A DNA stretch of 64,000 nt from Escherichia coli (GTDB lineage: Bacteria; Pseudomonadota; Gammaproteobacteria; Enterobacterales; Enterobacteriaceae). Positions 10,328 to 13,835 of the stretch are shown piece after piece. The translations under genes and the position numbers were made by a program. Location: the NCBI RefSeq assembly GCF_003334355.1, contig NZ_QOWP01000002.1. One strand, given 5' to 3'. How positions within the stretch are numbered: the stretch's first letter is position 1; every line of letters begins with the position of its first letter. The notes below the pieces were generated by a model. It searched no databases. It was not told where the DNA came from and saw nothing but the letters and a program-made list of their open reading frames with translations.

Positions 10328-12265
10328 CTAACCATCATACCAAGCATAGTTAAGATACTGTGTAACTCTATTTCTTGATAGTTCAAATAGCTGAGTGCCA
10401 TTTTGAACTCCAGACAGATCAAACCTGGTATTTTTGGTTAGCATATCCCATCCAGTAGCAGCTGGTGATACATACATTTTAGTGGTGGACATAGGGATTA
10501 TGTTACCCCTCAAGCTAATGTCTGAAATAGAACCTGAACCTGTTACTTCCAGTGAAATTCCTTTGTTGGATGCTGGACATAAAATAGTGTTGCCAGAAGC
10601 AATAAAACCAGTCATGGAACCCGACGTTAGCATGTCTATACCATCTGAAAGGGTATAAGCGTTATTATTAGTGACCTTCACGTTTGACGTGTTTCCAGCG
10701 TCACTAGCCTTGATGAAATTGGTTGTGTTGCTTGACCGGTTGTAGTCAACATTAAGCCCAGCTATTGTTGACGCTCTCAGGAAATAACTATCATTAGAAC
10801 TATTGCCAGAGAATACATTTTCAGAAATATAAACATCTTCAGACATATATACATCTGCAAATGATTTACACGTCCCTTTTGCCCTGTTGCGGTTTATTTT
10901 GATGTGTTTACTACCACTACCATCATATGTCTTGATGAATAATGGGATTACAACAGCACCGCCGATCAGGTCGTTATCCGTAATTTCAATCTCATCCGCA
11001 TGGTTTCCTATATGAAATGCTTCTGTTCCATACTGACCTGCCGACAATATGTTCTTGTACACTTTGCCATACGAGGTATTGGCATGAGTATCTATGCCAA
11101 AGGTTTGACCAACACCAGCGCCTTGAATGAAGTATCGTGCAGCAAATCCGATAATATTGTTATTATATACCTTGAAATTTGAAGCGGTGTGACCTTCGTC
11201 GGGTTCAATATCTATACCAGCTAATAGCGTATCACCTATGTAGTTTCCATGAATCTCAAACTGCCTAGTATCACTTCCGGCTGCAATACCCATCCTATTG
11301 GTTGTAATGATGGTGTTATGCCTTACCTTGAAATTTTTCGCGTTATAAACCAGGATGCCATCACCACGCTGCATCCCTACACCACCAATATTTTTGATAT
11401 TACAATTTTGAATTAACAGCCCATCCGTCTGTACATCGTAGTTTGCATAATCACCGAACCATATTCCTATGCCGCACTCACCGGATAGCATTGAAATTCC
11501 AATATCGTGAACATTCACGCCGTCTATAACGATATTGCTGCCACCGTACCCACGAATTCCTCCATCCAGGGTGCCTGTTATATCAACATCAATCACTTTG
11601 GCGTTGGAGATGTTAGCCATAAGTATCCCGGATTTCTCTTGCTGAGTTCCGCCATCAAATTGAAAGTTTAATGACCCGCTATGCATCACTTTATTACTTT
11701 TGTGGTTAATAGGTGAGCGAAGTTTTGAAACGAATCCGACGCCACCAAGTTTAACGCTAGGAGATTCAGAGTCTAATGCAGCGGATACAGCAGCATCGTT
11801 GAACTCTCCATCAATAGCACCCCATCCGCGAATGTCACCCTCTTCTCTCCACTGCTGAATTTTAATATGCTGATCCATCGATGGGATTAGAAGATATCCA
11901 TTTGGACCCGCTAGCTCTTGTCTTAATTGGTCAGGGTCATACTTCAGCACATTAGGAAAATAGAACTGCTGGGAACCATACGCATCATAAACAGCCATAG
12001 AATGGCCTTGCACAGTTACGAACTTGGCAATCTGTCCGTTATATACCGGGTAACCAGCAGCGTTAATGATGATTGGTTGCGAAACAGGAACGTGAGAACC
12101 GTCTTCGTTCTCCACATAAACCTGAATCTGGTTTTCTGGATTTACCGGATCCGTGTCAATTTTACCGATATAAATTTTACCATTGGCTACGGCTTTAAAA
12201 GAACGAGCCATAGTGAAGAGTTGCGATGGCATTGATACGATCACATTGGCTGTAATGTCTGTCAT
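10328..12265 (-). CDS. Tailspike protein (P22 gp9-like head-binding N-terminus, 645 aa)
   Basis: N-terminus [60 protein letters not shown]... is the conserved P22-family tailspike head-binding domain; long beta-helix-like remainder. Confidence 0.9.
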
Positions 12266-12321
12266 TTAATTTGCTCCAGATACAAGGAATCGCCGCAGCA
12301 TGGCTACGGCAATGCGTCATT

Positions 12322-12336
12322 GAGACCACAGTGGTC
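12322..12336. promoter_or_regulatory. 15-bp palindrome AGACCACaGTGGTCT, Mnt-operator-like, between mnt and tailspike
   Basis: Perfect odd-length inverted repeat in the divergent mnt/tailspike intergenic region; resembles the symmetric P22 Mnt operator as recalled. Confidence 0.5.
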
Positions 12337-12400
12337 TTATTGTGGATATAACCAGTAGATCATATGATGCCGATCCACTTACAAAAGTGAGGCATCAAGA

Positions 12401-12652
12401 ATGGGAAGAGATGACCCGCAATTTAATCTGCGGCTACCTTACGAATTAAAGGAAAAACTAAAACAGCGAGCCAAATCCAATGGCCGCTCTCTTAATTCAG
12501 AATTAGTTCATATAGTGACTGATGCTGTATCAAAGCCATCCAAAATTTCAGGCTATCGAGACGATGCGGAACGCATCGCTGATGAGCAGTCCGACCTTGT
12601 TAAGAAGATGGTGTTTGATACGCTGAAGGATTTGTACAAAAAAACCACCTGA
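12401..12652 (+). CDS. mnt: Mnt-like ribbon-helix-helix repressor (83 aa)
   Basis: Translation MGRDDPQFNLRLPYELKEKLKQRAKSNGRSLNSELVHIVTDAVSKP...MVFDTLKDLYKKTT closely resembles P22 Mnt as recalled. Confidence 0.85.
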   Translation: MGRDDPQFNLRLPYELKEKLKQRAKSNGRSLNSELVHIVTDAVSKPSKISGYRDDAERIADEQSDLVKKMVFDTLKDLYKKTT

Positions 12653-12751: not shown

Positions 12752-12931
12752 ATGGCGAAAAAACCAGGTGAAAACACAGGGAAAAACGGCGGAATATACC
12801 AAGAAGTTGGCCCACGCGGCGGTAAGAAAGACAATTTTGCCACCGTCAAGGACAACGAAAGGCTTCCACCAACAACAAAGCCAGGTCATGGCTGGGTATT
12901 GGATAAGCGAACTCCAGACAGCAAAAAGTAA
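12752..12931 (+). CDS. Hypothetical small protein (59 aa), unknown function
   Basis: ORF MAKKPGENTGKNGGIYQEVGPRGGKKDNFATVKDNERLPPTTKPGHGWVLDKRTPDSKK with GAGG RBS and a TTGACT -35-like element upstream. Confidence 0.55.
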   Translation: MAKKPGENTGKNGGIYQEVGPRGGKKDNFATVKDNERLPPTTKPGHGWVLDKRTPDSKK

Positions 12932-12944
12932 TAATCAAGCCGGG

Positions 12945-13310
12945 TCACTCCGGCTTTTTGATATGTCGCTCGCAGAACTCAACAAGCCTGCTCATTAAGT
13001 AGCAGTAAGTCTCGTTGGCTCTTCCTGGTTCAACATCAACACCTACCCTTGAGCAGATATCGAATGCCATGTGAGCGCACTCATGGGCAATAGTAGATAG
13101 TTTGCCATTGAACACGCCTATCACATGCAAAACACCATTCTCGCTACTCATTGTATGAGACGCTCCGTTGGCGTCCGAGTCATGCACGTCAACGCCAAGT
13201 TTTTGATGCAGGCGTTGCCATTCTGGAAAGTCTCTACAAAACACAATTGTACCGCTCTCAAAGAGCGGAACGAGCATCTTTGGTACGTTTCCAATGTTAA
13301 CTTTTTTCAT
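12945..13310 (-). CDS. Hypothetical protein with HExxH motif (121 aa), possible small zinc-metallopeptidase-like protein
   Basis: Protein-like [27 protein letters not shown]... containing AHECAHM; occupies a gap not covered by other credible genes; AGGA upstream of ATG. Confidence 0.5.
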
Positions 13311-13340: not shown

Positions 13341-13835
13341 GTGTCTGATTCTATGAGTTACGCTGTGCTAGTTGCCGCAACTCTATTTCTGGGGATAGGG
13401 TTGCAGATTGCGTGGTTCTTTTTTTCTAGTTTTATTAAACGTAAAAGAATTGAATCAAGGATATCTGAGATTTCTATTGCTATAGGGAAAAATGCTGAAA
13501 ATCCAGAGAATGAGGCCTGCGCACTGAATTACCTTAAAGAAAAGTTTTCCCCTGAAAAATTTGAAAACAGAATTACTGATGCTCTTGGATTGGTAATATC
13601 AGTAATTCATATGCCACTAAGTTTGCTGATAACAGTGTGGTACTTCGCCATGATCGCCGGAAGAATATTTGGTTTCATGAATATAGAGCCTGTAGTTCTT
13701 TGGGTTCCAATGATACTGCAATTGTTGTTAAGCGTTGCTATCTTTATTTTTTCTGTTTTTATAAAAATTGTCTTCGGAAGATACCCCGGAGAAGCGAAGG
13801 GATTTAATAAAGAATTCATAAAAACTATAAAATAA
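13341..13835 (+). CDS. Hypothetical multi-pass membrane protein (~164 aa); candidate superinfection-exclusion protein by position (SieA-like locus)
   Basis: AGGAGG RBS then GTG 13341/ATG 13354; hydrophobic segments ([24 protein letters not shown]..., ...[20 protein letters not shown]..., ...[27 protein letters not shown]). The upstream extension to 13125 in the ORF track is rejected. Confidence 0.6.

What the first reader, a model, noticed from the sequence alone, without database searches (positions are those of the whole stretch)
12322..12336. Mnt-type operator retained although the antirepressor it normally controls is missing
A perfect 15-bp palindrome AGACCACaGTGGTCT lies between mnt and the tailspike gene. 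In P22, Mnt represses Pant; here ant is absent, so Mnt may autoregulate or gate transcription entering the tailspike gene from the immI side. This would be a rewired circuit.
Basis: inference. Interest (0 to 1): 0.42.

Follow-up and report, generated by a model that had tools for sequence, protein, structure and literature searches.

The report
Mnt operator without its antirepressor
The palindrome is most likely the binding site of the neighbouring phage repressor Mnt, in a common and already described P22-like prophage layout that keeps the repressor but lacks the antirepressor genes it controls in P22, and what the pair does there is untested.

Summary
The palindrome AGACCACaGTGGTCT is real, at 12323-12337, one base right of the reported coordinates. 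It lies in the 135-bp spacer between the tailspike gene (10328-12265, -) and an mnt orthologue (12401-12652, +).

It occupies the same place as the P22 Mnt operator. Its centre is about 45 bp upstream of the predicted start of the mnt promoter, and its right arm abuts the -35 element. Its half-site is GTGGTCT; P22 has GTGGACC.

In 84 related loci the pairing is strict. Mnt proteins starting MGRDDPQFNLR go with GACCAC-N-GTGGTC and have no arc or ant (64/64). Proteins starting MARDDPHFNFR have arc plus ant (20/20), and 18 of these 20 carry GGTCCAC-N-GTGGACC.

The solo mnt is under purifying selection (dN/dS 0.14). The P22 Pant hexamers are degenerate here, and there is no sar RNA or arc remnant. 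So the operator reading is supported; control of a promoter reading into the tailspike gene is not.

The layout is already known from phages ST64T, ST104, L and SE1, and is frequent in E. coli prophages. One result I did not find in the papers read: the same operator and N-terminal arm also occur in complete mnt-arc-ant modules of other phages. The resident Mnt could therefore silence their antirepressor in trans. Function remains untested.

The parts
12323..12337 (.). Perfect 15-bp palindrome AGACCAC-A-GTGGTCT. It is the core of the predicted Mnt operator, whose 17-bp frame is 12322-12338 and whose centre is at 12330.
   Evidence: unique in the 64 kb; same place as P22 Omnt. GACCAC-N-GTGGTC is perfect in 58 of 64 loci with this Mnt type, always starting 79 nt before the mnt ATG.
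12340..12368 (+). Predicted mnt promoter (Pmnt homologue): -35 TTGTGG (12340-12345), 17-nt spacer, -10 TATGAT (12363-12368). The predicted start is near 12375, which places the operator centre at about -45.
   Evidence: best promoter-like match in the spacer (8/12), at the position homologous to P22 Pmnt (TTGAGA-17-TATCAT); the hexamers are kept as TTGAGG-17-TAAGAT in the second intergenic class, and there are no indels between operator and ATG in 64 loci.
12345..12373 (-). Remains of the position homologous to P22 Pant: -35 TCGGCA (12373-12368) and -10 TATATC (12350-12345). It is degenerate and lacks the final T of the -10.
   Evidence: P22 Pant scores 11/12, and this position fails the scan; the -10 equivalent is TGCATC in the Gally/E. 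coli class.
12401..12652 (+). mnt, 83 aa. It has a ribbon-helix-helix domain and the Mnt C-terminal tetramerisation domain. The N-terminal arm is MGRDDPQFNLRLPY, with Gln where P22 has His6.
   Evidence: dN/dS is 0.137 among 24 distinct genes of this type, and 61 of 64 are full length.
12753..12931 (+). orf59a homologue (59 aa), probably co-transcribed with mnt as in P22.
   Evidence: 98% identity to P22 orf59a. P22 annotation; present in only 27 of the 64 loci of this type.
12937..12956 (+). Terminator-like hairpin after orf59a, at the position of P22 tmnt.
   Evidence: 8-bp stem followed by TTTGATATGT. P22 tmnt lies in the same place.
10328..12265 (-). Tailspike gene (645 aa), with the conserved P22-type head-binding N-terminus. 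It diverges from mnt.
12289..12313 (-). 11-bp hairpin in the tailspike 5' leader, shared with the leader of P22 gene 9. It has no U tract, so it is not an intrinsic terminator.

Best explanation
The palindrome is the cognate operator of the resident Mnt repressor. This Mnt is a specificity variant of the P22 immI repressor/operator pair.

Inferred mechanism, by homology with P22 Mnt:
- A Mnt tetramer binds the two half-sites GTGGTC(T) through its N-terminal beta-ribbon arms.
- The site abuts the -35 element of the only conserved promoter in the spacer, the Pmnt homologue.
- The cis effect is therefore most likely autoregulation of the mnt-orf59a transcript.

The other half of the P22 switch (Pant, arc, sar, ant) is absent. 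The tailspike gene would then be transcribed by read-through from the late operon rather than from a Mnt-controlled promoter.

Shown:
- the site, its position and its uniqueness;
- strict co-occurrence of the arm RDDPQFNLR with GACCAC-N-GTGGTC in several unrelated contexts;
- purifying selection on mnt;
- loss of Pant, arc and ant.

Inferred: binding, the direction of the effect on Pmnt, and the benefit to the phage.
For: - Position: the 17-mer starts 79 nt before the ATG (74 in P22). In both phages its right arm is followed by TA-TTG, the -35 of Pmnt.
- Covariation: 64 of 64 Gln6-arm Mnt loci carry the nnGACCAC-N-GTGGTCTT site (core perfect in 58, one mismatch in the other 6) and no arc or ant. 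The 20 His6-arm loci all have arc plus ant, and 18 of them carry GGTCCAC-N-GTGGACC.
- The same arm and the same palindrome recur where the rest of the protein and the flanks differ. Examples are phage L (different C-terminus), L193 (60% identity) and L110, L126-128 and L136, which have three different C-terminal domains and sit next to arc plus ant.
- The centre base takes all four values while the arms are nearly fixed: pi is 0.75 against 0.025, with 0.071 for the other columns between operator and ATG.
- There are no indels from operator to mnt ATG in 64 loci, but several on the tailspike side.
- mnt has dN/dS 0.137, against 0.084 for the ant-linked type.
- The protein matches 1MNT and 1QEY and Pfam Arc plus Repressor_Mnt.
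- The best half-site of P22 Mnt is GTGGACC (PMC2726951), so the site here is a related but distinct sequence.
Against: - No binding or expression data exist for this allele.
- Lower diversity in the operator arms than in neighbouring non-coding columns is only weakly significant (P = 0.08).
- The loci are closely related, so part of the conservation is shared ancestry.
- A gene that only regulates itself has no obvious selective value, so autoregulation cannot be the whole story.
- The co-transcribed orf59a is present in only 27 of 64 loci.
- The predicted Pmnt is weak (8/12), and the tool's own promoter scan did not call it.
- Phage Emek has the same predicted base-facing residues (R2, Q6, N8, R10) but a different palindrome, TAGTAC-G-GTACTA. 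Residue 6 alone therefore does not explain the specificity.
Confidence: 0.62

Rival explanations
1. The main selected role acts in trans. The resident Mnt silences the antirepressor promoter of superinfecting phages that carry the same operator in front of arc-ant, and so protects the prophage from being induced. The operator next to mnt would only set the Mnt level. This complements the autoregulation reading rather than excluding it.
For: - Complete mnt-arc-ant modules with the identical palindrome and the N-terminal arm MARDDPQFNLRM exist in at least three lineages: L110, L126-128 and L136.
- In these modules the operator lies just downstream of a consensus TTGACA-17-CATCAT promoter that reads into arc-ant.
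- L136 lies in an ES18/SPN3UB-like siphovirus, 82% identical in DNA to Salmonella phages.
- L136 comes from the same IMG/VR dataset (3300045988) as many of the solo-mnt contigs.
- Purifying selection on solo mnt calls for some output beyond self-regulation.
- From my own knowledge of P22, not checked here: prophage Mnt represses ant of superinfecting P22.
Against: - No such ant-bearing module was found in 5,426 complete E. coli genomes at megablast sensitivity, or among GTDB species representatives.
- The hosts of L110 and L126-128 are unknown.
- There are no superinfection data.
- Under a pure trans role the local operator would be dispensable, yet it is kept.
Confidence: 0.25
2. Mnt bound at the palindrome gates transcription into the tailspike gene. 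It would do so either by repressing a residual leftward promoter or as a roadblock to polymerases arriving from the late operon or from hkcC.
For: - The site lies 58 bp upstream of the tailspike ATG in every locus of this type, or further where an insert is present.
- A -10-like hexamer on the tailspike strand is kept in both intergenic classes (TATGAT and TATTAT, 7/12 with a poor -35), and it would place the operator at about +18 to +34.
- PMC2629481, citing Adams et al. 1985, says the P22 'ant moron' may affect how often late transcription reaches the tailspike gene, and that Mnt and Arc may take part.
Against: - The Pant-homologous hexamers are degenerate and not conserved between classes.
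- No leftward promoter reaches the thresholds of the scan.
- P22-like phages without any mnt (Sf6, HK620; PMC2629481) still express their tailspike.
- The distance from operator to tailspike varies (58 or 69-71 bp, and about 290 bp more in some loci), whereas the distance from operator to mnt is fixed.
Confidence: 0.13
3. It is an inert relic. After arc-ant was lost, mnt and its operator are simply decaying, and the palindrome is kept only because the loss is recent.
For: - PMC8022706 raises this possibility for phage L.
- Two of 64 loci have a truncated Mnt (52 aa), and 6 have one mismatch in the core.
- Conservation of the operator arms over their neighbours is only marginally significant.
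Against: - dN/dS is 0.137 with pS 0.13 among 24 distinct genes, and 61 of 64 genes are intact.
- The pair is found across Salmonella and E. coli phages with two very different left flanks.
- Matches to the region occur in 881 of 5,426 E. coli genomes.
- The palindrome stays symmetric while the centre base varies freely.
Confidence: 0.08
4. The palindrome acts as an RNA hairpin or terminator rather than as a protein-binding site.
For: In tailspike-sense RNA it can form a 6-bp stem with a 3-nt loop.
Against: - No T or U tract follows on either strand, and the terminator scan does not call it.
- The arms never show compensatory changes. They are sequence-invariant, as expected for base-specific recognition.
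- It is homologous in position to a known operator.
Confidence: 0.02

Closest known systems
Phage P22 immI control region: the Mnt repressor with its operator Omnt, between Pmnt and Pant
   Same: - Orthologous repressor, about 76% identical, with a near-identical tetramerisation domain.
- Operator of 17 bp with two-fold symmetry and the core CCAC-N-GTGG.
- Same placement, flush against the -35 of Pmnt and about 75-80 nt before the mnt ATG.
- Same downstream orf59a, terminator, hkcC and sieA.
   Different: - The half-site is GTGGTCT, not GTGGACC. In the 17-bp frame there are two symmetric changes per half-site.
- The N-terminal arm has Gln for His6, Leu for Phe9, Leu for Met11 and Tyr for Met13.
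- Pant is degenerate.
- arc, sar and ant are absent, so the operator faces the tailspike leader directly.
The 'mnt-only ant moron' of phages ST64T, ST104, L, SE1 and ST160 (PMC2629481, PMC8022706)
   Same: - Same layout: tailspike, then operator and Pmnt, then mnt.
- The intergenic DNA is 85-90% identical.
- Phage L carries AAGACCAC-G-GTGGTCTT at the same spot.
   Different: - The window keeps P22-like orf59a, hkcC and sieA downstream, where L/ST64T have orf62.
- Its Mnt has the P22-like C-terminus, whereas phage L has a divergent one.
- The host is E. coli.
- The papers I could read do not mention the operator.
Complete mnt-arc-ant modules with the same operator in uncultured phages (IMG/VR contigs L110, L126-128 and L136; L136 is ES18/SPN3UB-like)
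   Same: - Identical palindrome AGACCAC-N-GTGGTCT.
- Same arm, RDDPQFNLR.
- Same junction of operator and -35 (GTGGTCTTATTG).
   Different: - They have a strong Pant (TTGACA-17-CATCAT) that reads through the operator into arc and ant.
- Their Mnt-like proteins have unrelated C-terminal domains (104-128 aa).
- They sit in a different virion-gene context.

Membership tests
P22-type immI Mnt/Omnt repressor-operator pair | The adjacent gene encodes an Mnt orthologue, with a ribbon-helix-helix N-domain and the Mnt C-terminal tetramerisation domain. | tested here: met
   1MNT at E 3.6e-33 and 1QEY at E 1.5e-12. Pfam Arc at 5.5e-21 and Repressor_Mnt at 4.4e-17.
P22-type immI Mnt/Omnt repressor-operator pair | A single 17-bp operator with two-fold symmetry, just upstream of and abutting the -35 of the mnt promoter. 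| tested here: met
   same register as P22 (operator, TA, TTGnnn, 17 nt, -10). The site is unique in the window.
P22-type immI Mnt/Omnt repressor-operator pair | The half-site matches the P22 Mnt optimum GTGGACC. | tested here: not met
   The half-site here is GTGGTCT. The optimum is taken from PMC2726951. The difference covaries with the N-terminal arm.
P22-type immI Mnt/Omnt repressor-operator pair | The operator overlaps the start of a strong divergent promoter (Pant). | tested here: not met
   P22 Pant scores 11/12. The homologous hexamers here are TCGGCA and TATATC, and they are not conserved in the second class.
P22-type immI Mnt/Omnt repressor-operator pair | arc, sar RNA and ant lie downstream of the operator. 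| tested here: not met
   tblastn and Rfam.
P22-type immI Mnt/Omnt repressor-operator pair | Mnt protein binds the site and changes transcription. | not testable with these tools
   This needs EMSA or footprinting and reporter fusions.
Solo-mnt 'ant moron' (ST64T/ST104/L type) | mnt is the only immI gene between the gene 16 homologue and the tailspike gene, with its promoter region facing the tailspike start. | tested here: met
   All 64 loci with this Mnt type have this layout.
Intrinsic terminator | A G+C-rich stem followed by a T run. | tested here: not met
   One search does not call it. The tail is TATTGTGG on one strand and CAATGACG on the other.

The most novel reading that the evidence does not exclude
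Solo Mnt with its operator is a selected, self-regulating 'anti-antirepressor' immunity gene. By keeping only the repressor half of immI, the prophage would silence in trans the ant promoter of any incoming phage that uses the GACCAC-N-GTGGTC operator, and so avoid being induced by foreign Ant. Mnt/operator specificities would then form immunity groups that cut across phage families, podoviruses and ES18-like siphoviruses alike.
Probability: 0.22. Interest if true: 0.55.

Novelty: new member of a known kind. Interest (0 to 1): 0.3.

Why it matters
The phage L genome paper left open whether the lone mnt of ST64T/L-type phages is a remnant or has a new role.

The evidence here argues against a remnant:
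- the gene is under purifying selection;
- it keeps a matched, symmetric operator and its own promoter;
- the same arm/operator specificity also controls real antirepressor modules in other phages.

This makes a simple experiment possible: binding, reporter and superinfection assays with two natural Mnt/operator specificities. It also offers a natural altered-specificity pair for the well-studied Mnt-DNA recognition system.

It does not reveal a new kind of regulatory element.

Tried and rejected
- Palindromy as evidence in itself. Rejected: the window holds 6 such palindromes against 4.2 expected.
- Terminator or RNA hairpin. There is no T tract and no covariation in the arms.
- A hidden arc or ant remnant, or sar RNA, in the spacer. 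None found.
- A second operator elsewhere in the prophage or the flanking host DNA. None within 2 mismatches.
- An antirepressor elsewhere in the prophage under the same control. ORF 32679-33404 belongs to the Rha plus KilAC (ANT) family but lies in the nin region with no operator nearby.
- hkcC-like ORF 12945-13310 as a hidden antirepressor or protease. It has no Pfam or NCBIfam match, only an HECAH motif.
- A one-residue recognition code (His6 to Gln explains the operator change). Weakened by phage Emek, which has the same predicted base-facing residues and a different palindrome.
- Hosts of the ant-bearing modules with this operator. Two scans of GTDB representative genomes gave 0 hits and 3 chance hits. 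The E. coli genomes matched only the ant C-terminus.
- Primary papers on Mnt contacts and on Pmnt activation (Knight & Sauer, Berggrun & Sauer, Man/Stormo, Silbaq). They are not in the held library. Statements about His6 as the specificity residue, and about Mnt stimulating Pmnt in vitro, therefore rest on my memory only.

Full report
**1. Observation**

The sequence AGACCACAGTGGTCT occurs once in the window, at 12323-12337. This is one base to the right of the coordinates given. It is a perfect 7+1+7 palindrome.

It lies in the 135-bp spacer between two genes:
- the tailspike gene (10328-12265, minus strand), whose product starts MTDITANV;
- an 83-codon gene at 12401-12652 (plus strand).

Palindromy alone means little. 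The window contains six perfect 7+1+7 palindromes against 4.2 in shuffled sequence. Only about 0.009 would be expected inside this spacer. No second site within two mismatches of the 13-bp core GACCAC-N-GTGGTC exists in the 64 kb.

**2. The neighbours**

- The 83-aa protein is an Mnt orthologue. It matches PDB 1MNT (E 3.6e-33) and the Mnt tetramerisation domain 1QEY (E 1.5e-12). It also matches Pfam Arc and Repressor_Mnt.
- Downstream follow an orf59a homologue (12753-12931), a terminator-like hairpin (12937-12956), an hkcC-like ORF (12945-13310, minus) and sieA (13341-13835). This is the P22 order.
- P22 Arc finds only mnt itself, and P22 Ant finds nothing below E 0.19 in the whole window.
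- Rfam finds no sar RNA.
- The flanking host DNA is E. coli: dsdXA at 99.9% identity.

**3. Comparison with P22**

In P22 the annotated Mnt operator is AGGTCCAC-C-GTGGACCT. It is followed directly by TA-TTGAGA (the -35 of Pmnt), 17 nt, and TATCAT. The strong divergent Pant (TTGACA-17-TATATT) fires through the operator into arc-ant.

In the window the register is the same: GAGACCAC-A-GTGGTCTT, then A-TTGTGG (12340-12345), 17 nt, and TATGAT (12363-12368). The operator centre therefore falls about 45 bp before the predicted mnt start.

This Pmnt homologue is the best promoter-like match in the spacer, at 8/12. The hexamers homologous to Pant have decayed to TCGGCA and TATATC.

The operator differs from that of P22 at two symmetric positions per half-site. 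The half-site is GTGGTCT, against the measured P22 optimum GTGGACC (PMC2726951).

**4. Related loci**

I collected 83 loci from IMG/VR and GenBank phages and analysed them together with the window. Two Mnt types separate cleanly.

| N-terminal arm | Operator | arc and ant | Count |
|---|---|---|---|
| MGRDDPQFNLRLPY (Gln at P22 His6) | nnGACCAC-N-GTGGTCTT, starting 79 nt before the ATG | absent; tailspike start adjacent | 64 of 64 |
| MARDDPHFNFRMPM | GGTCCAC-N-GTGGACC in 18 of 20 | both present | 20 of 20 |

The two His-type loci without that operator are the CUS-3-like loci L082 and L083, noted in section 8.

For the Gln type:
- The 13-bp core is perfect in 58 of the 64 loci. The other six have one mismatch each. 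Two loci carry a truncated Mnt.
- The centre base takes all four values (T 21, C 21, A 14, G 8). The arms are nearly fixed: pi is 0.75 against 0.025, with 0.071 for the other columns between operator and ATG. The difference between arms and other columns is weak (P = 0.08).
- There are two intergenic classes: window/L/ST64T/SE1, and Gally with most E. coli prophages. They are unalignable to the left of the operator. Both keep the operator, the TTATTG junction, a usable -10 (TATGAT or TAAGAT) and an indel-free stretch to the ATG. The Pant -10 equivalent is TGCATC in the second class.
- Solo mnt evolves under purifying selection: dN/dS is 0.137 at pS 0.13 over 24 distinct genes, against 0.084 for the ant-linked type.

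The layout is common. At least 19 named phages match across the tailspike start and mnt. Matches occur in 881 of 5,426 complete E. coli genomes, and in 106 of them a single match covers at least 80% of the 501-bp query that runs from the tailspike start through mnt.

**5. The same operator elsewhere**

I scanned IMG/VR for AGACCAC-N-GTGGTCT. Many are chance hits.

Five contigs (L110, L126-128, L136) stand out. They carry the palindrome between two elements:
- a gene that starts MARDDPQFNLRM;
- an arc homologue (60-64% identity) followed by an ant homologue.

The operator lies just downstream of a TTGACA-17-CATCAT promoter reading into arc. On the other side it is followed by the same TTATTG -35 junction. 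Their Mnt-like proteins have three unrelated C-terminal domains of 104, 111 and 128 aa. L136 lies in an ES18/SPN3UB-like siphovirus.

Two further loci are relevant:
- L193 has a 60%-identical Mnt (MGRNDPQFNLRM), the same operator and a tailspike gene, with no ant.
- L203 has a more distant 165-aa ribbon-helix-helix protein with TAGACCAC-C-GTGGTCTA, next to an arc-like and a Rha-type gene.

The recurrence of arm plus palindrome in otherwise unrelated settings is the strongest evidence here that they are a cognate pair.

The code is not a single residue. Phage Emek has the same predicted base-facing residues but the palindrome TAGTAC-G-GTACTA.

**6. What it most likely does**

Three points are shown:
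- a matched repressor/operator pair is kept;
- its own promoter is kept;
- the antirepressor half is gone.

The following is inferred. Mnt binds the site as a tetramer, by homology with P22 Mnt. Because the site abuts the -35 of Pmnt, it regulates mnt-orf59a transcription. I recall, but could not check, that P22 Mnt stimulates Pmnt in vitro mainly by shutting off the competing Pant. Without Pant the direct effect could go either way.

Autoregulation alone gives no benefit, so purifying selection implies an output. Three candidates:
- Trans-repression of ant on incoming phages with the same operator. Such phages exist, but I could not place them in E. coli.
- Modulation of transcription reaching the tailspike gene. 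This idea is already in PMC2629481, citing Adams et al. 1985. The promoter evidence here is weak.
- Control of the variable gene that follows mnt. orf59a is present in only 27 of the 64 loci.

An inert relic is unlikely, and a terminator is excluded.

**7. Known or new**

The 'mnt-only ant moron' of ST64T, ST104 and Para1 is described in PMC2629481. The phage L paper (PMC8022706) states that L lacks ant, arc and sieA but has a mnt-like gene that 'could have acquired another function ... or be a remnant'.

Three points are not in the papers I could read:
- the conserved operator with altered half-sites;
- its strict pairing with the Gln-type arm;
- its presence in full arc-ant modules elsewhere.

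I class the finding as a new member of a known kind, of modest interest.

**8. Other things seen along the way**

- A Rha plus KilAC protein in the nin region.
- The hypervariable centre base of the operator.
- A roughly 290-bp insert after the fifth tailspike codon in some related loci.
- A 17-bp direct repeat in P22 whose first 9 nt mark the junction in the window.
- CUS-3-type loci with two tandem ribbon-helix-helix genes.

Noticed in passing
window 32679-33404 (-): A 241-aa ORF in the nin region has Phage_pRha and KilAC (Pfam ANT, E 1.4e-32) domains and matches phrog_63 'anti-repressor Ant' (E 2.5e-91). It is not of the P22 Ant type, and no Mnt-operator-like site lies near it. The prophage therefore does carry a protein of an antirepressor-named family, outside immI.
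   Followed up: partly
window 12330, and the same column in loci L001-L083: The centre base of the operator is by far the most variable column of the region: pi is 0.75, with T 21, C 21, A 14 and G 8 in 64 loci. In two cases it differs between otherwise identical haplotypes. This could be neutral, because the base is not contacted, or the centre of the palindrome could be a mutational hot spot.
   Followed up: partly
L004, L005, L014, L035, L047, L049-L051, L053, L061 (about 150-430 nt upstream of mnt); L030 (about 930 nt): In these relatives the operator-proximal ATG encodes only MTDII... before stop codons. The real tailspike N-terminus lies about 290 bp further (about 800 bp in L030). The insert duplicates the first tailspike codons.
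   Followed up: no
L002 (P22) 1596-1615 and 1711-1727; window 12303-12311: P22 has a 17-bp direct repeat, TGGCTACGGTGAATTTT, once after ant and once before gene 9. Homology of the window with the gene 9 leader ends after the first 9 nt of this repeat (TGGCTACGG). This looks like the recombination joint that defines the ant-less layout.
   Followed up: no
window 12289-12313 (-): An 11-bp hairpin with no U tract lies in the tailspike 5' leader. It is shared with P22 gene 9 but replaced by other sequence in the Gally/E. coli class. Its role is unknown (mRNA stability or processing?).
   Followed up: partly
window 12945-13310 (-): The hkcC homologue (121 aa, phrog_1365) carries an HECAH (HExxH-like) motif but has no Pfam or NCBIfam match. 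It is transcribed towards mnt and the tailspike gene.
   Followed up: partly
L082, L083, L206 (phage CUS-3): These show a third immI layout. A second ribbon-helix-helix gene (MSDRKYKNPQVNLRLP...) sits directly upstream of a His6-type mnt on the same strand. The control region holds different repeats (GGTACGCATAC / GGTACGCATTG), and there is no P22-type operator before mnt.
   Followed up: no
window 9505-10287 (+): A truncated-looking O-acetyltransferase ORF (phrog_3333, matching profile positions 111-366 of 372, with a TTG start) lies just beyond the tailspike gene. It is a probable serotype-conversion gene or a remnant of one.
   Followed up: no
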